Shown in pieces: positions 52,364 through 61,620 of a DNA stretch of 64,000 nt. How positions within the stretch are numbered: position 1 is the first letter of the stretch; each line of letters starts with the position of its first letter. The position numbers and the translations under genes were made by a program. Under the pieces are notes generated by a model. The model was not told the DNA's origin and did not search any database. It saw only the letters and a list, made by a program, of their open reading frames with translations. Origin of the DNA: a virus; the IMG/VR virus record IMGVR_UViG_3300031555_006030; one strand, 5' to 3'.

Positions 52364-52842
52364 TAACTAATCCTTTCTGCATATTGATTTGGACTTGCGA
52401 GTTTTACTCCTAGCACTTCATCAAAATGAGATTCACAATTAGGAATATAGCGTCCAAATTTAACTACTATATTGGGAAACTGTTTTAATTGAGTTAATTC
52501 ATTTTCAATCTCATTTTTATTATAACCCGTGTAAATAACAATATCATCATCTATAGAATAACAATTACGAAATTGAAAAACAAAGTTGCGCAGATCTTCA
52601 ATAGAATCAAAAGGCTCTAGACCTTGGAATACCACCGCGCGCGTAATCGGATTTTTTCTATAGGTTTTAATAATACTTTCTATTGAGTAATTTAATAGTG
52701 GGGCATTAGCTAGTGGCCCATTTTGGCACACTGGCTTACCACATTCTTTATCGCATTTGAAACTGCAATAAGGTGATTCTATTGTCATACATGGCACTTT
52801 ATAATTAACAAAATCTTCAAATATAATGCCTCGTGTAATCAT
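52363..52842 (-). CDS. nrdG: anaerobic ribonucleotide reductase activating protein-like protein
   Basis: A Cys cluster plus an AVVFQGLEP segment resembling the GGEP motif; the start overlaps the nrdD stop (ATGA). Confidence 0.5.
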   Translation of the reverse strand: MITRGIIFEDFVNYKVPCMTIESPYCSFKCDKECGKPVCQNGPLANAPLLNYSIESIIKTYRKNPITRAVVFQGLEPFDSIEDLRNFVFQFRNCYSIDDDIVIYTGYNKNEIENELTQLKQFPNIVVKFGRYIPNCESHFDEVLGVKLASPNQYAERIS

Positions 52843-54776
52843 TTATTAATAGGCTCCCACTTTCTCATTTTATATTCATTTGTGCGCTCTTTTGACCAAG
52901 TCTTAATTGGTGTATAAAAACCAACAATTCGAGTATACTCTGTTTCAACAGGTCTACCACACTGAGGGCAAGTGCGTCCATAAAATGCATGATTATTGTC
53001 ACATGCTTGAATCTTTGTGTTAAATGCAAAATAAGTTACCCCAGCATCGGAGATATAGTTTACCATATCCCAAGCCTTTTCAAAGCTATCAAAGGGGGCG
53101 TCTATGTTTGCATGAAGAATGGAACCTCCGTTACAATAACCGTCAAACTCTGCGGCAATACGCACACGCTCTGCAAGAGTGGTCTGAATACCAAGAGGGA
53201 TAAACTGGTTGCCATAAAGAGGTAGATCAAAGACTTCTGCATTTGGATAGAAGAATTTATCTTTGCGCATTAGTTTCGCGGCGGCCGACTCTCCGGGAAT
53301 TTGCTCGGTATTAATGTGATAATCGGCACCCATTTCTGCTATAAATTCATCTGCTACTTGGCGCATTGTTTCAAAAATTAACTTACCAAGGCGAGAAGCA
53401 TCTTCTGTGTAGAATACATTGCCAAATTCATCAGTATGAGTATATCCAAAGCGTTTCATAGTTTCATATACTCCAATAAAACCTATTGTGTTATAAAGAT
53501 GCTCGAAATCAACCAGTCCATTGGAAAAATTTGGTAAAAGTCCTTTCTCAACATTGCGACGAATGATATTTCGTACGCAGTGTAAAGCTTCAAGATTAAG
53601 TCTTGTACGATACTTAAGTTGTTCAATATATTCTTCTTCTGTTTCAACATCAAGCGCAAGGCGCGCAAGATTGATTGTAGACACCTTTACAGAGCCAACT
53701 TTAAGTGCGGTTCCTCCGATACTATTAAAATAACCTAGGTCTTTAATATCACTCTTCAAACGGCAACAGTTAGAAAGTGAAGTTACAGAGTCATCAATAA
53801 ATAAATTACTATCAGACCAGCGCATGTTGTGCTTTACGGCCCAGCGTGCAAATTCTTCATCCTGGAATTTTCCTTCTTGTTTTAAAAGAGAGATTGAAAG
53901 GACTGGGAAAGTAAACATATTCTTGTCTCTAATATCAGCAACGGTTTCCATATACCACTTCTGGAATTCAATAACCTCTTCCTCATAGTCAATCATAAAT
54001 TCTCCATTGGGGAATGTACTGCCGCCAAACAGAGCTTCATAATAAGGATGGTCGAACACGCTTGTATTAGTAAACGCAGATTGCGACCCATCGCGAACAT
54101 ACGGTTGGTTCACCGCGTAAACAAAACGCTGGAAGTTTTGGCGCGCATATTTCTCTCCATTGCCACTGCTCTTGATACCGAGATAATCTTCTTCCATATC
54201 CTTGTGCCAGAAGTAATACATATAAGGAATAAGGTTAGGAAGACCAACGGCACCTGAAGAGCGATTAGAAGCGTAACTAATATATTCTTTAACAAAGTCT
54301 ACAAAAGTGGTTAAGTGTTGTGCAGGCTCTGGATTAAATGGAGCGCCGATAAAGTATAGTCCTTTTTCAGCTAGATCTTTAAGATCATAAGCGAAACAGT
54401 AATGTTTAAAGGTCGAAGTATCGGCATCATGCATATAGAGCTGTCCAATCCACTCTGCTCGTAACCACTCGTTTGCGCGCTTAAATCCAAAATGTTTTTG
54501 CATTTCATAGTGAATCTTATTATAAGATAACAATTTTCTATGAGGCTTAGGCATCTCATTTAATAGAGTAACCATATCCTTTTTACTAACATTGCTATTG
54601 CCATCAATGCTCGCATCTGCGACGACTTTAGTATCGATAAAGGAGCTAATAAAGTCAGTATAAGATAATTGTTCATCAGCGAATCCATTCAATTTTGCCA
54701 TTTCAGTACCAAATTCATCTTGCATTTTGTTATAAGCGGTAACAAAATTTTTTTTCAATTTAACATTAATTTCCAT
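52839..54776 (-). CDS. nrdD: anaerobic ribonucleoside-triphosphate reductase (class III)
   Basis: The C-terminus has a CPQCGRP zinc ribbon and the glycyl-radical motif RIVGFYT. The likely start is MEINVKL at 54776 (the track start at 54851 is too early). Confidence 0.8.
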   Translation of the reverse strand: MEINVKLKKNFVTAYNKMQDEFGTEMAKLNGFADEQLSYTDFISSFIDTKVVADASIDGNSNVSKKDMVTLLNEMPKPHRKLLSYNKIHYEMQKHFGFKRANEWLRAEWIGQLYMHDADTSTFKHYCFAYDLKDLAEKGLYFIGAPFNPEPAQHLTTFVDFVKEYISYASNRSSGAVGLPNLIPYMYYFWHKDMEEDYLGIKSSGNGEKYARQNFQRFVYAVNQPYVRDGSQSAFTNTSVFDHPYYEALFGGSTFPNGEFMIDYEEEVIEFQKWYMETVADIRDKNMFTFPVLSISLLKQEGKFQDEEFARWAVKHNMRWSDSNLFIDDSVTSLSNCCRLKSDIKDLGYFNSIGGTALKVGSVKVSTINLARLALDVETEEEYIEQLKYRTRLNLEALHCVRNIIRRNVEKGLLPNFSNGLVDFEHLYNTIGFIGVYETMKRFGYTHTDEFGNVFYTEDASRLGKLIFETMRQVADEFIAEMGADYHINTEQIPGESAAAKLMRKDKFFYPNAEVFDLPLYGNQFIPLGIQTTLAERVRIAAEFDGYCNGGSILHANIDAPFDSFEKAWDMVNYISDAGVTYFAFNTKIQACDNNHAFYGRTCPQCGRPVETEYTRIVGFYTPIKTWSKERTNEYKMRKWEPINK

Positions 54777-55437
54777 ATCTCCAATGATATCCTCCTGTTG
54801 TTTGTAAAATTCCTTGGCAACAACGAGATATATTTTCATGATGTAAGCCAAGTTCTTTCTCTGCTTCTGCTAGAGATTTAAAAGTTTTGTTTAGTTCTAC
54901 ACAATATACACTAGTAGTCCTTTGATCTATTGAAGATGGAATATTATTGGATAGAAAATCTTCATAGTATGCCCAATGAAATTTATAAGCAGTGTGTAAT
55001 TTACCACGACAGCAAGCAATAATGTTTGCATTTGCGAATCCTTTGAGTCGCTCAATCTCTTTGGCGCTATCAAAAATCTCTTGTGTTTCTAAACATATAA
55101 TTTTTCTTTTAGTTTTGCAACTGTTGCTCATTTTTTGACGAGATTCTATCGAATATTCATTATTTAATCCGCCACTTTTTATATTATAACCGTTATTTAC
55201 AGTATCATATTTTGTAATAAGCTCTTCTTTTTGATTTGCTTCTTGTAAAGTTAGGTTTTGACATAAAATAGTTTGTTCAAAATTATCCCAGCCATATTTT
55301 TTAATAGCATTATAAAATTTAATACAGCCAGTATAATTGGATGGATGGCAACGACGAGCCATATCTTTAGACTAACCAATGTATTTTTTACCATTTGTTT
55401 TATTAGTATAGCAGTAAATACAATATTGATTATCCAT
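54766..55437 (-). CDS. free-standing GIY-YIG homing endonuclease with TAG inside the catalytic motif
   Basis: The sequence reads MDNQYCIYCYTNKTNGKKYIG-TAG-SKDMARR. Two NUMOD-like C-terminal repeats follow. It overlaps nrdH by 8 nt and nrdD by 11 nt. Confidence 0.6.
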
Positions 55438-56365: not shown

Positions 56366-56537
56366 TTTTATTTTCTCCTTTTGTCTGTCTTTTTAAAAAT
56401 AGTTTACTTTCTTCTGTTGCTTGAGAGAGATATTTTTCTAAAATATCTCTCTCAAAAGCATAGTCGTAATTAACAACCATTTGATATGAATAACTATTTT
56501 CATAGTTTTCAATAGTTTTCTTTTCAATTATTATCAT
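56355..56537 (-). CDS. hypothetical small protein
   Basis: 60-aa ORF. Confidence 0.3.
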   Translation of the reverse strand: MIIIEKKTIENYENSYSYQMVVNYDYAFERDILEKYLSQATEESKLFLKRQTKGENKNGK

Positions 56538-57935
56538 TCTTCCATGTCCTTTCTTTCATGCACCAATTCCATATCGCGCCCATCATTGAAAAGCGAAATC
56601 TTATAGATTTGATGAGTAGGTGTGTGCTTATAGGTTTTGGTTACGAACTGATCACCTCGTCTAAAACCAGTTAAGAGTAGCATCGTTCCTCTCTTGAACC
56701 AGCCCTTCTCCGTCACCTTTTTAGACCCATCATCTTGAAGCTCCGACAATTGCTTCTTGTATTGCGCGTAATATTCTTTCGTAAACTTAACCGTTACAAC
56801 ACCCGAGGGGGTCAATAGGGTAATGGATGCTTTGTTATCATTCTTTGCGATTACAGTTCCAATGATTTTATGCGTTTTCCAAATTGGAATTTGTTGACCA
56901 TTGCGCTTAAAGTAATAATCAACTTCTGGCTCTTCTGGAAGCGCAAAGAAGTTTGAAATGCCATACTTGTAGGTATCAACATTCGCTAACTCATGCTCGT
57001 GATAATAGAAACACAAGGATTCCATTTCCCAAGAGGACAAAGAACCTTGGGCATATTTATTCCAAGCATCTATAAAGAGCTGCTTATTAAGTTCGTGCAA
57101 AACCTCGCTCTGATGCTCTTTTAACCAATCTCTGGCGCCATCCATTTGTTTTTGATAAATTCCATCCCAAGTTTTTTGTTGAATACAAGTTAAACCATTA
57201 ATAATCTCTAACTTTTCAATATCAAAGTTATCTTTATAGAATTTATCACAGGGTTCATCAAACACAAAATATTTTCCAACTTTTGTATTTGCTTTAAGAT
57301 ATTTATTAAACTCAAACACTCTGCGCTCAAAGTCAAGCGACTCTGGAACCAATCTACGCTGAATAAGTCCATTGAAGTTTTGTAAGGTTAATTTACTTTT
57401 AGGTTCACAAGCTTTCGATAAATAATATGCCATTACTACAAATCTTGGGTGAATATTTAACTCTTTACCCCATTCTATCTCAAGCTTATCAAAAGCGCCC
57501 GCCTTAATAAGAGAAATCATCTGCGTTTTATTAAGCGGACAGCGCTCCATGAAGTCTGCGATATTCGCGTACGGTCTGCCGCTTATTATCTGCTCAATAA
57601 CTTCACTATTGATTCCACTTAACGCTTTCATACCAAAAAGGATTTGATTATTTTCTACATCGGGTTTAAAACTAAATTGAGATTTATTTATGTCTACCAA
57701 AGACACATCGATACCAGCGGATAAAATATCACCAAGCGCTTTTGCCAGCTTAGTATAATCTGTCTGCTTGTCTTTTGCCTCTTCGTCATCATCCTCGTTA
57801 TCATATCCTTCAAGCGAACCACTATTGACAATTAAGTTTGCAGTATTCCAATAGATAGGATTCCATCTTGTGGCGGCGTATGCCGTCTGGAAACCAATGA
57901 AGCTGTAAGCGAGCGCATGGATAATACTAAAACTA
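56534..57935 (-). CDS. dnaE: DnaE-like DNA polymerase III alpha, C-terminal exon 2
   Basis: The in-frame sequence upstream of track ORF 56534-57706 reads FSIIHALAYSFIGFQTAYAATRWNP, matching the DnaE pattern [24 protein letters not shown]. The 5' boundary is approximate. Confidence 0.6.
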
Positions 57936-59125
57936 TCACGTAAATCCAGTATTCCTACTGGCGTAGACTATCTCTTACTTATCTTTGAGAGTAAGATAAG
58001 TACACCCATTTCCCGCCTCGTACCAATAGAGGAGGTACTTCCGATCTCACTCGGAATAGTCGTTACAGGGTTTTAAAGGATAACTTAATTTTTCATCATA
58101 AAAACATTCTCCAACCTTAATGCGGCGAACAGTTTCTTCGGAAGCTTTTACCATTTCTGCAATTTCTCTATTGGAAAAAGAAGTAGTTAACAAAAGCTCT
58201 TTAATTTTATTCGCGCGCTGTTCATTTGCAGATATTTTTCGGATTGGATAAGAAGGATATAATCCTTTTCTTAATGTTCCAGCATTAATTTTTTTAACAG
58301 TGGAATATCCTAATCCTAGCATTCTTGCAATTTCTGCTAAGCTATAAGTTGAATTTAATAGAAGTTCAATTAATTCATCATAGTCTTTATCCTCTTTATA
58401 GTATTTACAAAGTGGATATTCTTCATTTTCATCAAAATAATAAATACCATGATTTAGAGAAGAAATGAAAGAGGCGCTTGCGCCATACTTAATAGTAATA
58501 TCTAAAAATGGTGTTTTATCTTTGATGAGTTGCTTCATGTCTTGGATTTCTTCTTTTGTCCAGGTTCTAGCATGCTCTCGAGAATCTCCTCCCCAAGAAA
58601 CATTATATCCTTTGCCAGTACTGCAATGAGATTCTAATTTTTTAACCCAATATTTTTCTCTTTCATTTACTTCTTGGATATCTTCTGTGTAGAGCTTCTC
58701 AAGTAAAGATATTTCAAAAGCGGCTTCTCCATATTGTCTTATCTTTTGATGAATTAAATTATTATAAGATGAAGCCTTCTCATTGAAAGCGCATGAGCGA
58801 TGTTCTCTTACTCTTCTATTAAAATTGTTTGTTTGACCAACATATTTATGTTGATTAATTTTGTTTGTGTAGCAGTAAATATAATACATACCATTTCTCT
58901 CCTTTTTAATATTATATTACTGTTATCATTATCCTTTAATTTCCCACGGGATTGTCTGATAACAGTTAGGATATTTTTTGTATCCTCACTGTTATATAAG
59001 ATTTCCCCGTTAGCATTTATCTAAATTTGACCTTAATTTTAAAAATTTTTTAGATAAATACCCCACTGGTTAGTGGAAAAGGTGTATAGGGGCAAGTTTT
59101 TGTTTACCCCATTTGCGGGCCAATA
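57936..59125 (-). mobile_element. putative group I intron in dnaE (boundaries approximate)
   Basis: An S-like AAGAGATAGTCTACGCC at 57961-57977 and an R-like ACGACTATTCC at 58054-58065 can form P7 (GACUAU paired with AUAGUC). A P8-like hairpin CTTATCTT...AAGATAAG lies between them. The GIY-YIG ORF sits inside, and there are stops in all frames. Confidence 0.5.
58047..58889 (-). CDS. GIY-YIG homing endonuclease (intron-encoded; standard code)
   Basis: The N-terminus reads YYIYCYTNKINQHKYVGQTNNFNRRVREH; the C-terminus has a helix-turn-helix. Confidence 0.7.
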   Translation of the reverse strand: MYYIYCYTNKINQHKYVGQTNNFNRRVREHRSCAFNEKASSYNNLIHQKIRQYGEAAFEISLLEKLYTEDIQEVNEREKYWVKKLESHCSTGKGYNVSWGGDSREHARTWTKEEIQDMKQLIKDKTPFLDITIKYGASASFISSLNHGIYYFDENEEYPLCKYYKEDKDYDELIELLLNSTYSLAEIARMLGLGYSTVKKINAGTLRKGLYPSYPIRKISANEQRANKIKELLLTTSFSNREIAEMVKASEETVRRIKVGECFYDEKLSYPLKPCNDYSE

Positions 59126-61620
59126 CCATGCTTCCAAACATAATGACCCATGCATGGAGAGCTAGCTTGATCAAGAACTTGCTGTTGCAAAGCAGGGATC
59201 TTAGACATTTGCTTTTTTCCGACGATTTTTCTGGCGGCGTTGGCATCTGCAAGGCTAAACCCACAAATCTTAGGATCCATCAACATCTGCATCATCTGCT
59301 CCTGAGAAGGGGGAACGCCGTGAGACTTTAAGAAATAAGGTTTCAATACTTCTTGTTCCTCTTTTGTGAGTCCATATTCATCCATTTCTTTATACCAAAG
59401 GTTGATGTTATTCTTAAAACGAACATATTTTTCCATTGGTGTTTCCTGACCTTTTTCATTGGTCATAAGTCGCATCAGTCCATTGGCGTCCGCTAACTCA
59501 AGAATACTTGATGGACGAATCTTCTTAGCGGCTTGGGCGCCCACATCCGAGTCAAATTGAAAAAGACCTAATACTGCAACATCTTGGATTGGTTTCCAAT
59601 ACTTTTCTTCTTCAATGGGAAGAACATTCGGATGAAAATATTTATCATATATCTGGCGCAAGGTCATATCTGACTCTAACTCACCAGTCTCTTGCAGCAT
59701 GTTAATAGTCTCTACAAGCTTGTCTTGCACTTCCGTTACGAGGAAGTCGTATTTCACCATTCCAAGTGCTTCACAAGTGTGAAGGTCAAATTGCGTTATA
59801 ACTTCGCCTTTTGGCGTTCTCATGAAGGCGCCAAACTCATATGGATCTTCATCAAACAAGATTACTCCAGATGCGTGAGATGAGCGCTTATTCTTAAGAC
59901 CTTCAATCGAGGTCATAATTTCCAAAAGTCCAGGATAATGATTTACTTCTCTAACGAATGATGCTACTGGTTTACGATCTTTGTCTGGATTACCATTAAC
60001 AACATCACTAATACTCCACAAGAAACCACGCTCTTGCGGCACAAGAGAAGTTAGATACTGCGCCATGTCAACATCAATACCGTCTGGATATTCTTCACTA
60101 CGATATCCGCGGCAAGCGGTCAATATCGCGCTCTTTGTAGTCTCTGTACCAAAAGTTGCGATAAGTGTGCAACCCAAATTGGCGCGAGACAATTCATCAA
60201 TATTTGCATTAAACTTGGCGCCACGCTCCTCTTTAATCTTCTTAAGGATATAGGGTCTTTTACTCGGACATAGATCTAAGTCTATATCACCTAGCTCTAC
60301 TCTTTCCTTATTGAGATATCGCCAGAAAGGCAAGTCCCACTCAATCGGATCAAGCTGAGTAACTCCAAGAAGATAATGGTTTAGACCTGAGCAGCTTGAA
60401 CCACGACCGGCGCCAACCATAGAGCCACATTCCCAGAAGAGATTAATATAATGCTGAAGTGTAACAGGATATGCAAACATATTCGTTTCCAGCTTCTCAC
60501 TAATCGCTCTCTTGATATCTGCCTCTTCTTCAAGTCTTGAAAGATACTGTGTTTCAAGATGACCTATTTCCACTAATTTATTTACACATTCATTTACCCA
60601 ATATCTCTCAACGACATTATCTGAATTATACATATCATCAAGTATTGGAAACTCTGTTTGCTGTTGTCTTTTAGGATATTCTCTTACTTCAACTTTAGGA
60701 ATTCTTTGCTTATGTCGAATACTATAATTTTCAATTTTATCATAGATAGATAAGCTATTTTCAAATAAATTGCTAATATACTCATCATCATTGAAAGATT
60801 TTCGTAAGTTTTCAAAAATCTCGTCTTCAGTTTGAAGATAAGAATACTCATAGAAGCTATCTACCTCTCTCTCACCGCCCTTTGAATTAAGATACGCTTT
60901 ATGAACATATCTATCTTCCTTTGAGAGATAGTGCGCGTCACTACCAATTACCATTGGAATTCGCATTGCTTCAGAGATTTGACGCAACTTTTTATTAACC
61001 ACTATCTGATCTCTTGAAGCGGCGGGTGCGCATTCCAAATAAAAGTCATCTCTAAAAAGATTCTTACACCAAGAGATAAAATCAACTATATGATTATACT
61101 CTTGCTGTCTTGTTTCCATGTCAAACATCGCTTCTGCGCTTAACATATTTGCAACTGCTGTTGATAACTCTCCACCGAGACAAGCAGTTGTTGCTATAAG
61201 TGAACTTGGATATTTGTTTACGATTTCTTCAAGATCTGACTTAAGAGTTACCACTCTTTCCATACCACGATCCCAATAACTATTGAGCCAAGCGCGTGAT
61301 GATAATTCTCTTAATGCGCGCCACCCAGTAGCATTTTTAGCCAAAAGTATAAAGTGATAATACTTTTGACTCATATCTCTTGTATCACAGAGATATATTT
61401 CATTTCCAAGAGCAATTTTGAAATCAGGATGCTCTTCTCTTATCTTTTCGCCATAAAAACTTGCGGCTGGTAGATTACTTAACGACTCATGGTCTGTAAT
61501 ACTTATACCTGCAAGTCCAATCTTCACAGCCTTATCAATTAAATCTTCTACGCGGTTAATACTATCAAGCAGTCTTGTATTTGAAGTATCTGTGTGCGTG
61601 TGTATTTCAAATCGAAGCAT
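59104..61620 (-). CDS. dnaE: DnaE-like DNA polymerase III alpha, exon 1 (PHP, palm and fingers)
   Basis: It has the PHP signature HTHTDTS and catalytic aspartates in ELGDIDLDLC, plus QFDLHTCEALGMVKYDFL. The last ~10 codons before the stop at 59104 are probably intronic. Confidence 0.75.
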   Translation of the reverse strand: MLRFEIHTHTDTSNTRLLDSINRVEDLIDKAVKIGLAGISITDHESLSNLPAASFYGEKIREEHPDFKIALGNEIYLCDTRDMSQKYYHFILLAKNATGWRALRELSSRAWLNSYWDRGMERVVTLKSDLEEIVNKYPSSLIATTACLGGELSTAVANMLSAEAMFDMETRQQEYNHIVDFISWCKNLFRDDFYLECAPAASRDQIVVNKKLRQISEAMRIPMVIGSDAHYLSKEDRYVHKAYLNSKGGEREVDSFYEYSYLQTEDEIFENLRKSFNDDEYISNLFENSLSIYDKIENYSIRHKQRIPKVEVREYPKRQQQTEFPILDDMYNSDNVVERYWVNECVNKLVEIGHLETQYLSRLEEEADIKRAISEKLETNMFAYPVTLQHYINLFWECGSMVGAGRGSSCSGLNHYLLGVTQLDPIEWDLPFWRYLNKERVELGDIDLDLCPSKRPYILKKIKEERGAKFNANIDELSRANLGCTLIATFGTETTKSAILTACRGYRSEEYPDGIDVDMAQYLTSLVPQERGFLWSISDVVNGNPDKDRKPVASFVREVNHYPGLLEIMTSIEGLKNKRSSHASGVILFDEDPYEFGAFMRTPKGEVITQFDLHTCEALGMVKYDFLVTEVQDKLVETINMLQETGELESDMTLRQIYDKYFHPNVLPIEEEKYWKPIQDVAVLGLFQFDSDVGAQAAKKIRPSSILELADANGLMRLMTNEKGQETPMEKYVRFKNNINLWYKEMDEYGLTKEEQEVLKPYFLKSHGVPPSQEQMMQMLMDPKICGFSLADANAARKIVGKKQMSKIPALQQQVLDQASSPCMGHYVWKHGIGPQMG

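What the first reader, a model, noticed from the sequence alone, without database searches (positions are those of the whole stretch)
56534..61620. DnaE-like replicative polymerase split by a group I intron carrying a GIY-YIG homing endonuclease
The PHP, palm and fingers exon (59104-61620) ends in a short non-conserved tail plus a stop. The conserved DnaE segment [16 protein letters not shown] resumes as FSIIHALAYSFIGFQTAY about 1.2 kb downstream (near 57935), in frame with ORF 56534-57706. The intervening segment holds a GIY-YIG ORF (58047-58889) whose last codons form an R-like GACTATTCC. Next comes a P8-like hairpin, then an S-like AAGAGATAGTCTACGCC (57961-57977), which is a close match to the group I S consensus AAGAUAUAGUCC. 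An intein is excluded by the multiple stops in all frames.
Basis: partly seen in the sequence, partly recalled or inferred. Interest (0 to 1): 0.6.

Follow-up and report, generated by a model that had tools for sequence, protein, structure and literature searches.

The report
Mobile self-splicing intron in phage polymerase
The phage's DnaE-type DNA polymerase gene is interrupted by a 1,169-base group I intron that carries its own GIY-YIG homing endonuclease gene, which is a well-known kind of selfish element in phage replication genes, here in a less familiar host gene and a poorly catalogued intron subfamily.

Summary
On the minus strand, a DnaE-like polymerase gene is split into exon 1 (61620..59106) and exon 2 (57936..56534). 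The 1,169-nt insert (59105..57937) contains an intact GIY-YIG ORF (58889..58047).

Removing the insert exactly restores the motif QMGYSFSIIH. That motif is uninterrupted in 78 intron-less alleles from viral contigs and in Enterococcus phage VRE9_3 and SPbeta YorL.

The insert has the group I hallmarks:
- a U·G pair at the 5' splice site within P1 (GGGGU/GCCCC);
- a terminal G;
- P10 and P9.0;
- a P4-P6 and P7-P7.1-P7.2-P3-P8 core that resembles the T4 td intron in sequence.

It belongs to a family found in more than 120 viral contigs, with and without ORFs. In that family, 29 of 43 tested base pairs show compensatory changes.

Rfam finds nothing in the window. This is a sensitivity failure, because the T4 td intron itself scores only 40 bits against a threshold of 50. 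A model built from 32 other family members hits the window once, at 57930-58069, with 100.6 bits and E = 7e-22.

Splicing itself was not observed. This is a new member of a known kind, of modest interest.

The parts
59106..61620 (-). Exon 1 of the DnaE-like polymerase. It encodes PHP, pol III alpha and finger domains and ends ...GPQMG plus the T of the Tyr839 codon.
   Evidence: Pfam. Alignment to the VRE9_3 polymerase and YorL.
57937..59105 (-). Group I intron, 1,169 nt. It starts AAACAAAAAC and ends ...UUUACGUG, with the terminal G at 57937.
   Evidence: Splice sites are fixed by protein alignment and by the U(-1) and terminal-G rules.
56534..57936 (-). Exon 2 of the polymerase. It starts AT-AGT-TTT-AGT (completing Tyr, then SFSIIHALAYSF...), carries HHH_6 and the C-terminal region, and its stop codon is at 56534-56536.
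59106..59110 (-). P1, exon strand GGGGU. U59106 forms the U·G wobble at the 5' splice site.
   Evidence: Read from the sequence. The guide sequence covaries with the exon in other family members, e.g. VRE9_3 GAGGU/GCCUC and L043 UUAGGGU/GCCCUAA.
59089..59093 (-). Internal guide sequence GCCCC (the intron strand of P1).
59095..59099 (-). P10, intron strand AAACU. It pairs with AGUUU of exon 2 (57934..57930).
   Evidence: Read from the sequence. The same-site homologue L043 has AAAGUGC/GCGUUUU in the same register.
59081..59086 (-). P3, 5' strand UACACC. It follows the guide sequence directly; there is no P2.
   Evidence: It pairs with GGUGUA at 58006..58001. All 5 tested pairs covary across 58 sequences.
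59063..59076 (-). Hairpin between P3 and P4 (P3.1-like), CCACU-AACC-AGUGG. Its loop ACCA (59070..59067) is complementary to the L7.2 loop.
   Evidence: Covariation of the stem. Loop-loop covariation with L7.2.
59015..59059 (-). Second hairpin between P3 and P4 (P3.2-like), with an 11-bp stem AUUUAUCUAAA/UUUAGAUAAAU.
   Evidence: All 4 tested pairs covary. The minimum-free-energy fold reproduces it.
58946..59013 (-). J3/4, P4, extended P5 and P4': CUAACGGGGAA...CAAUCCCGU.
   Evidence: Exact family motif. Near-identical to T4 td CUAAACGGGGAA...CAAUCCCGUG.
58047..58889 (-). GIY-YIG homing endonuclease ORF (280 aa) in the P6 loop. A Shine-Dalgarno sequence AGGAG lies at 58903..58899. The 3' end of the ORF runs through P6', J6/7 and P7, with its stop codon in the P7.1 loop.
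   Evidence: Pfam GIY-YIG. PHROGs homing endonuclease families, best E = 1e-34. 32% identity to the I-TevI catalytic domain (PDB 1MK0, E = 4e-5), with counterparts of Y6, Y17, R27, H31, E75 and N90 aligned.
58056..58061 (-). P7, 5' strand GACUAU (the R element). It pairs with AUAGUC at 57971..57966.
   Evidence: Invariant in the family. Aligned to P7 of the model and of T4 td.
58040..58055 (-). P7.1 hairpin UCCGA-GUGAGA-UCGGA.
   Evidence: All 4 tested pairs covary.
58013..58035 (-). P7.2 hairpin with the conserved loop CUAUUGGUACG. UGGU (58025..58022) is complementary to the P3.1-like loop.
   Evidence: All 5 tested stem pairs covary. Loop-loop covariation.
58001..58006 (-). P3, 3' strand GGUGUA, preceded by the conserved GAAAUG.
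57978..58000 (-). P8 hairpin CUUAUCUU-ACUCUCA-AAGAUAAG.
57966..57977 (-). J8/7 and the 3' strand of P7: UAAGAGAUAGUC (the S element).
57937..57965 (-). P9.0 (ACG at 57964..57962 with CGU at 57940..57938), P9 hairpin CCAGUA-GGAA-UACUGG (57961..57946), and the terminal G at 57937.
   Evidence: All 6 P9 pairs covary. P9.0 changes in step in L034, UAUA...UAUG.

Best explanation
A mobile, self-splicing group I intron of the phage IA2 (T4 td-like) type sits inside the Tyr839 codon (T|AT) of the conserved finger motif QMG-Y-SFSIIH of a phage DnaE-like polymerase.

Inferred splicing mechanism:
- The polymerase pre-mRNA is transcribed through the intron.
- The intron folds into P1 (GGGGU·GCCCC), P3-P8 and P4-P6.
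- An external guanosine attacks after U59106.
- The terminal G (57937) then docks in P7. With the exons aligned by P10 and P9.0, they are ligated to give mRNA for a 1,305-aa polymerase.
- Unspliced RNA stops translation at once, because TAA is formed at the junction.

Inferred mobility:
- The ORF in the P6 loop encodes a GIY-YIG endonuclease.
- It would cut intron-less alleles of the same gene in a co-infecting phage, and repair would copy the intron in (homing).

What is shown: the anatomy, the exact restoration of the reading frame, the homology of the core to T4 td, the family-wide covariation, and the existence of intron-plus and intron-minus alleles.

What is inferred: the splicing and cleavage activities themselves.
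For: 1. Precise restoration. The spliced product has no indel at the junction against the VRE9_3 polymerase (QMGYSFSILH) and SPbeta YorL (QFGYSFSLLH). Eighty viral-contig relatives have the junction region uninterrupted, including L126-L130 at 98% amino-acid identity. In 78 of these loci the motif Q[ML]GYSFS[IV]IH is found uninterrupted.
2. Splice-site rules are met: U(-1)·G in P1, a terminal G, and P10. Intron-plus alleles carry exactly the synonymous codons (GGG, AGT) that pair with the guide sequence. None of the 78 intron-less alleles has that junction sequence.
3. Same-site introns with a homologous endonuclease gene occur in independent contigs: L064, L110, L035 and L043.
4. The family is found in more than 120 viral contigs, in DnaE, nrdD and other genes, with and without ORFs.
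5. Covariation is strong. In the fixed-register test, 94.4% of cells are paired, against 72% in shuffles and about 40% when the partner is slid. Compensatory changes occur in 29 of 43 pairs.
6. A covariance model built without the window hits only 57930-58069(-), at 100.6 bits and E = 6.8e-22. It also hits the T4 td 3' half (46 bits, E = 2e-9) and introns that Rfam validates.
7. The endonuclease looks intact, with I-TevI-like catalytic residues and a ribosome-binding site.
8. Exon 2 has no in-frame start codon between the junction and GTG 57706, so it cannot supply the conserved motif on its own.
Against: Rfam RF00028 gives no hit in the window, even at E <= 10. There are no RNA data, so splicing is unproven. 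P10 is offset by two bases from the splice site. The endonuclease ORF overlaps P6', P7 and P7.1, which could interfere with folding while it is being translated. All relatives are metagenomic contigs, so no biology is attached to them.
Confidence: 0.88

Rival explanations
1. The gene is a truly split DnaE. The two ORFs are translated separately and assemble as two polypeptides, and the endonuclease gene is simply a free-standing insertion between them.
For: Two long ORFs are separated by an endonuclease gene. Rfam gives no intron call.
Against: Exon 2 has no in-frame ATG, GTG or TTG until 57706, which is 77 codons past the junction. A separate product would therefore lack the invariant YSFSIIHALAYSF motif. 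The flanks of the insert form P1, P10 and a td-like core with family-wide covariation. The junction falls inside a codon.
Confidence: 0.03
2. It is a decayed intron, or a pseudogenised polymerase. The element was a group I intron but no longer splices efficiently, or needs a helper protein, and the gene is non-functional or poorly functional.
For: Splicing is untested. The ORF intrudes into the catalytic core. A neighbouring endonuclease gene (54766-55437) is disrupted by a nonsense codon, which shows that decay occurs in this genome.
Against: Every conserved core element and every tested helix is intact in the window's row. The intron is 100% identical in an independent contig, L064. The polymerase exons are full length and conserved. 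The polymerase is likely to be essential.
Confidence: 0.07
3. It is an intein, or a 'fractured gene' (split-intein halves flanking an endonuclease gene, as in Dassa et al. 2009, PMC2677866), removed at the protein level.
For: DnaE genes are classic hosts of inteins and split inteins (PMC2677866, listed; PMC4853749).
Against: A stop codon sits exactly at the junction. Neither exon has any extra residues beyond the homologue alignment, so there is no room for intein halves. No Hint or intein domain was found by Pfam.
Confidence: 0.01
4. It is an assembly artefact that joined two phage variants, or inserted a repeat.
For: Identity between the window and L064 switches abruptly at the 5' splice site. 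That pattern can arise from chimeric assembly at a repeated element.
Against: The same exon-intron-exon arrangement is found in four other contigs at different divergence levels: L064, L110, L035 and L043. The insert is bounded to the nucleotide by functional splice-site features.
Confidence: 0.01

Closest known systems
T4 td group I intron (subgroup IA2) encoding the GIY-YIG endonuclease I-TevI
   Same: The host is a phage DNA-metabolism gene. The sequences CUAA(A)CGGGGAA...CAAUCCCGUG (P4-P5-P4'), AACGACUAUCC (J6/7-P7), P7.1, AGUA, P7.2, GAAA, P3', P8 and GAGAUA(UA)GUC are shared. My family model hits the td 3' half at E = 2e-9. The GIY-YIG ORF lies in the P6 loop and its end reaches the J6/7-P7 region. 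The N-terminal catalytic domain is 32% identical.
   Different: There is no P2. The 5' strand of P3 follows the guide sequence directly, and two hairpins lie between P3 and J3/4. P5 is extended. The region after P7 has only P9.0 and P9, with none of td's further 3' sequence. The C-terminal DNA-binding region of the endonuclease shows helix-turn-helix matches and does not align to I-TevI beyond residue ~98. The host gene is a family C polymerase.
Group I introns in phage DNA polymerase genes (SPO1/I-HmuI, Bastille/I-BasI, Pf-WMP3/I-PfoP3I; Hausner et al. 2014 review, PMC3984707; PMC3428280, listed)
   Same: A self-splicing intron carrying a homing endonuclease gene is inserted in a highly conserved motif of the phage replicative polymerase.
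   Different: From my own knowledge, those hosts are family A polymerases and the enzymes are HNH nickases; I did not check the host family here, though the listed titles and abstracts call I-BasI and I-PfoP3I nicking endonucleases, the latter HNH. Here the host is a DnaE/PolIIIα-type polymerase and the enzyme is GIY-YIG. I found no paper describing a group I intron in a phage DnaE gene.
B. thuringiensis nrdF group IA intron encoding I-BthII (PMC2248736)
   Same: The GIY-YIG ORF starts in the P6 loop and spans P7, including the R element. P7.1 and P7.2 are present.
   Different: It is bacterial or prophage, in the nrdF gene. It has P2 and P9.1/P9.2, and its GIY-YIG spacing is unconventional.
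nrdD intron of Escherichia phage AlexBoehm (Vequintavirus), annotated as a joined CDS
   Same: The layout is the same as here: P1, then P3, then two hairpins, then CUAACGGGGAA...CAAUCCCGUG, GACUA and AGAUAGUC. It too is sub-threshold for Rfam, at 29.8 bits.
   Different: It has no ORF, sits in a different host gene, and comes from a Gram-negative phage lineage.

Membership tests
Group I intron | The 5' exon ends in U, paired as U·G with an internal guide sequence (P1). | tested here: met
   GGGGU(59106)/GCCCC(59093..59089). The guide sequence changes with the exon in other family members.
Group I intron | The intron ends in G, and P10 and P9.0 align the 3' splice site. | tested here: met
   G57937. 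P10 is AAACU/AGUUU, with compensatory AAAGUGC/GCGUUUU in L043. P9.0 is ACG/CGU.
Group I intron | A conserved core with P3/P7 pseudoknot, P4-P6 and P8, supported by covariation. | tested here: met
   By the count of structure pairs, 94.4% of cells are paired against 72% in shuffles and about 40% when slid. Compensatory changes occur in 29 of 43 pairs, and in 5 of 5 pairs of P3.
Group I intron | Homology of the catalytic core to an experimentally verified group I intron. | tested here: met
   Model R1, built from 32 family members, hits the T4 td 3' half (46.2 bits, E = 2.2e-9) and introns that Rfam validates. Motifs are shared with td.
Group I intron | Rfam RF00028 gathering score of 50 bits. 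| tested here: not met
   There is no hit in the window. The controls fail too: T4 td scores 40.3 bits, an ORF-less family member 36.1 bits, and the AlexBoehm nrdD intron 29.8 bits. The criterion is therefore uninformative for this subgroup.
Group I intron | Guanosine-dependent self-splicing. | not testable with these tools
   This needs in vitro transcription with GTP and Mg2+, or RT-PCR.
GIY-YIG homing endonuclease | An N-terminal GIY-YIG catalytic domain with counterparts of I-TevI Y6, Y17, R27, H31, E75 and N90. | tested here: met
   Pfam PF01541 scores 36.3 bits against a cutoff of 22.6. The BLASTP alignment to I-TevI (IYCY...KYVG...RRVREH...EREKYW...GYN) is. PDB 1MK0 matches at E = 4e-5.
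GIY-YIG homing endonuclease | Site-specific cleavage of the intron-less allele. | not testable with these tools
   Candidate targets exist, namely the intron-less alleles L126-L130.
DnaE / PolIIIα (family C polymerase) | PHP, pol III alpha palm, fingers and HhH domains in order. | tested here: met
   Pfam PF02811, PF07733 and PF17657 in exon 1, and PF14579 in exon 2. Identity to phage homologues is 41-42% over about 1,250 aligned residues.
Intein / fractured gene | An in-frame Hint domain, or split-intein halves at the exon ends. | tested here: not met
   A stop codon sits at the junction. There are no extra residues relative to homologues and no Hint domain.

The most novel reading that the evidence does not exclude
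This intron may represent a large subclass of td-like phage group I introns that is effectively uncatalogued.

Its features are:
- no P2;
- the 5' strand of P3 directly after the guide sequence;
- two hairpins (P3.1/P3.2-like) between P3 and J3/4;
- a loop-loop kissing contact between the first hairpin and L7.2, supported by covariation (UGAU/AUCA, UGGU/ACCA, UAGC/GCUA, UGGC/GCCA, UGAC/GUCA).

The subclass escapes the Rfam group I model. It has colonised the replication genes of uncultivated phages so heavily that their DnaE genes carry up to four introns.
Probability: 0.3. Interest if true: 0.45.

Novelty: new member of a known kind. Interest (0 to 1): 0.3.

Why it matters
For annotation, the two ORFs should be joined into one 1,305-aa replicative polymerase. 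They should not be called as a truncated DnaE plus a separate HhH protein.

More broadly, the standard Rfam screen misses this intron family, and it even scores T4 td below threshold. Introns in metagenomic phage genes are therefore under-called, and many 'split' replication genes in viral catalogues are probably intron-containing.

The family alignment also gives a testable tertiary contact (P3.1-like loop with L7.2). Natural intron-plus and intron-minus allele pairs from the same metagenome (L064 and L129) are available for homing studies.

None of this changes how group I introns are understood.

Tried and rejected
- Rfam, at the gathering threshold on the whole window and at E <= 10 on 57400-59400 and 58885-59125, gave only noise. 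I rejected this as negative evidence after the controls.
- Megablast of the whole locus against GenBank phages found no match.
- blastn with the window's intron ends found only weak hits to Enterococcus phage VRE9_3. Those hits nevertheless led to the family.
- A whole-length MAFFT alignment of ORF-trimmed introns was too gappy, at 694 columns. I replaced it with fixed-offset sampling from conserved anchors.
- The first GAAA-anchor rule mis-placed about 10 sequences. These were fixed or filtered before the formal test.
- I considered a pairing between CUUUUCC and GAAAUGG as an extension of P3. The variable position does not covary, so I left it out.
- Literature searches for a group I intron in phage DnaE found nothing specific.
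- I first thought the hairpins between P3 and P4 might be a new kind of element. 'P3.1' is already listed as an optional group I pairing (PMC3873408), so I downgraded the idea.
- The promoter and terminator scan of the locus gave nothing above shuffle expectation inside the intron.
- I did not build a model for the 5' half. All family members were retrieved through a 5'-half motif, so a hit there would not be independent evidence.
Full report
**Observation**

On the minus strand there are three long ORFs in the flagged region: 59104-61620 (838 aa), 58047-58889 (280 aa) and 56534-57706 (390 aa).
- Pfam places PHP, DNA_pol3_alpha and the finger domain in the first ORF (profile positions 11-162 of 166).
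- Pfam places HHH_6 in the upstream extension of the third ORF, and a GIY-YIG domain plus helix-turn-helix matches in the middle ORF.
- The frame of the third ORF is open upstream to 57972 and reads STPVGILDLRDSFSIIHALAYSFIGFQTAY.
- The R-like GACTATTCC (58061..58053) and the S-like AAGAGATAGTC (57976..57966) are present.

There are three small corrections. Exon 1 has no non-conserved tail. Three hairpins, not one, lie between R and S. The S coordinates are off by one base.

**Splice sites**

Joining T59106 to A57936 gives ...CAA ATG GGG T|AT AGT TTT AGT..., a 1,305-aa ORF with no internal stop. The junction reads QMGYSFSIIH.
- The uninterrupted polymerase of Enterococcus phage VRE9_3 reads QMGYSFSILH, and SPbeta YorL reads QFGYSFSLLH. 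Neither shows an indel at the junction. Overall identity is 41-42% over about 1,250 aligned residues.
- VRE9_3 also shares the local gene order: Dda-like helicase, polymerase, guanylate kinase.
- In IMG/VR, 80 relatives have the junction region contiguous. These include L126-L130 at 98% amino-acid and about 88.5% nucleotide identity.
- In 78 of these loci the motif Q[ML]GYSFS[IV]IH is found uninterrupted.

The insert is therefore 59105..57937, 1,169 nt, inside the Tyr839 codon. A one-base shift would give the same mRNA. The U(-1) and terminal-G rule selects the stated sites.

**Group I anatomy in the window**

- P1: GGGGU·GCCCC, with the U·G wobble at the splice site.
- P10: AAACU with AGUUU of exon 2.
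- P3: UACACC (59086..59081) with GGUGUA (58006..58001).
- Two hairpins follow P3 (59076..59063 and 59059..59015).
- J3/4, P4, extended P5 and P4': CUAACGGGGAA...CAAUCCCGU.
- P6: GGG/CCC, enclosing the ORF.
- P7: GACUAU/AUAGUC.
- P7.1, P7.2 and P8.
- P9.0: ACG/CGU.
- P9, with a GGAA loop.
- The terminal G at 57937.

The minimum-free-energy fold of an ORF-deleted version recovers the local helices.

Unspliced RNA terminates translation immediately, because TAA spans the 5' splice site. Exon 2 has no in-frame start codon before 57706, so it cannot supply the conserved motif independently.

**A family, not a one-off**

The P4-P5-P4' motif occurs once in the window, and none of 100 shuffles contained it. 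It occurs in more than 120 IMG/VR contigs.

These elements are either about 250-300 nt without an ORF, or about 1-1.2 kb with a GIY-YIG ORF in the P6 loop. From the flanking exon sequences they interrupt DnaE and nrdD, and probably a gyrase/topoisomerase-like gene; that last assignment is read from a short exon motif only and was not tested. Where I checked the reading frame (the DnaE-site introns, and L039 in nrdD by hand), the exon ends in U and the intron ends in G.
- Four contigs have an intron at the same DnaE site with a homologous endonuclease: L064 (100% identical), L110 (97.5%), L035 (70%) and L043 (53%).
- In L043 both P1 (UUAGGGU/GCCCUAA) and P10 (AAAGUGC/GCGUUUU) change in step with the exon.
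- Intron-plus alleles all carry GGG and AGT (or GCG in L043) at the synonymous sites that pair with the guide sequence. Intron-less alleles mostly carry GGA or GGT and TCN, and none has the exact intron-plus junction.

**Covariation**

I sampled bases at fixed offsets from conserved anchors, so the register was not fitted to the pairing. Only the first hairpin was defined by its own pairing.
- The tool counted 94.4% of cells paired, against 72.1% in shuffles (0 of 500 shuffles reached it) and 37-43% when partners were slid.
- Compensatory changes occur in 29 of 43 pairs. The covariation score is 0.59, against 0.16 in shuffles.
- P3 (5 of 5), the second hairpin (4 of 4), P7.1 (4 of 4), P7.2 (5 of 5) and P9 (6 of 6) all covary.
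- P4 and P7 are invariant. P4 is invariant partly because of how the loci were retrieved.
- My own cognate-versus-non-cognate test agrees.
- The loop of the first hairpin and the P7.2 loop are Watson-Crick complementary in 67 of 82 members, against 0.3% for non-cognate combinations. Several pair types occur; the window has ACCA/UGGU.

**The Rfam negative**

RF00028 does not hit the window at any threshold I tried. Controls show this is insensitivity.
- In the same loci, RF00028 finds neighbouring canonical introns at 52-99 bits.
- It scores members of this family at only 36.1 bits (L082) and 29.8 bits (the E. coli phage AlexBoehm nrdD intron, annotated as a joined CDS), or not at all.
- In the L082 alignment all four non-canonical marks on the 5' strand of P3 show that the model fails on P3.
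- The T4 td intron scores 40.3 bits, below the threshold of 50.

I then built a covariance model from the 3' halves of 32 other members, excluding the window, L064 and L110.
- Its only hit in the 64-kb window is 57930-58069(-), at 100.6 bits and E = 6.8e-22.
- It also hits the T4 td 3' half (46.2 bits, E = 2.2e-9), the Staphylococcus phage MR003 introns, and the introns in L082 and L039 that Rfam validates.
- Direct comparison with td shows the shared strings CUAA(A)CGGGGAA, CAAUCCCGUG, AACGACUAUCC, GAGUA, GAAA and AGAUA(UA)GUC.

**Endonuclease**

- The ORF has an AGGAG ribosome-binding site 9 nt upstream of its ATG.
- It matches PHROGs homing endonuclease families (best E = 1e-34).
- It is 32% identical to the I-TevI catalytic domain, with counterparts of the catalytic Tyr, Arg, His, Glu and Asn residues aligned.
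- Like I-TevI, whose stop codon lies in J6/7, and like I-BthII, it sits in the P6 loop and runs into the core. Here the stop codon lies in the P7.1 loop.

**How it differs from td**

There is no P2. The 5' strand of P3 follows the guide sequence, and two hairpins lie between P3 and J3/4. An optional 'P3.1' is already listed among group I pairings, so this is a variant layout rather than a new principle. It may nevertheless be a poorly catalogued subclass.

**Rivals**

- A protein-level split is contradicted by the missing start codon, the intra-codon junction and the RNA features.
- An intein or a fractured gene is excluded by the stop codon at the junction and the absence of any extra residues.
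- An assembly artefact is unlikely, given four other contigs with the same arrangement.
- A decayed, non-splicing intron cannot be excluded without RNA data. However, every tested core element is intact.

**Verdict**

This is a new member of a well-known kind, the td-like phage group I intron with a GIY-YIG endonuclease gene. Its host gene is a DnaE-type polymerase, for which I found no published example. Interest is modest.

Noticed in passing
window 54766-55437 (-): A second, free-standing GIY-YIG/NUMOD endonuclease gene lies between the NrdH-like ORF and nrdD. It is disrupted by an in-frame TAG right after the motif ...IYCYTNKTNGKKYIG. Only the part from ATG 55362 onward remains open. It is a decayed relative of the intron's endonuclease.
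   Followed up: partly
window 59101 compared with L064 (IMGVR_UViG_3300029705_002704): Identity between the window and L064 switches at the 5' splice site. Exon 1 differs every 6-12 nt (about 90% identity). The last mismatch is at intron base 5. After that, more than 2 kb (intron, endonuclease gene and exon 2) is 100% identical, up to the end of the contig. This could be a homing or recombination breakpoint, or an assembly chimera.
   Followed up: partly
L065, L078, L044, L060, L005, L090 (viral contigs): Related DnaE genes are broken at several other positions, around residues 445, 578, 715 and 838. L065 and L078 each show four interruptions, several with their own GIY-YIG ORFs.
   Followed up: partly
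window 59067-59070 and 58022-58025; family-wide: The loop of the first hairpin after P3 and the P7.2 loop covary as a 4-bp kissing pair: UGAU/AUCA in 43 members, UGGU/ACCA in 11 (including the window), plus UAGC/GCUA, UGGC/GCCA, UGAC/GUCA and UAGU/ACUA. This predicts a tertiary contact.
   Followed up: yes
window nrdD, 52839-54851 (-), motif NRSSGAVGLPN: The window's nrdD is uninterrupted at the site (SSG|AVGLP) where other members of the same intron family appear to be inserted in L004, L032 and L039. The site was read from the flanking exon sequences, and I worked out the frame by hand only for L039. It is therefore an empty target site in this genome.
   Followed up: partly
L126-L205 (intron-less alleles), junction codons: None of the 78 intron-less alleles has the exact intron-plus exon junction ATGGGGTATAGTTTTAGT. 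Most use TCN for the first Ser codon and GGA or GGT for Gly. Intron-plus alleles use the codons that pair with the guide sequence. This is consistent with co-conversion, or with selection for P1 and P10.
   Followed up: partly
L206 (T4 td), L125, L082: Rfam RF00028 scores the classical T4 td intron at only 40.3 bits, below its own gathering score of 50. It misplaces the match to the 3' half. Routine Rfam screening therefore under-calls ORF-containing phage group I introns.
   Followed up: yes
L129 and L064, both from metagenome 3300029705: An intron-less allele (on a 135-kb contig) and an intron-containing allele of the same polymerase gene come from the same metagenome. Donor and recipient for homing therefore co-occur.
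   Followed up: no
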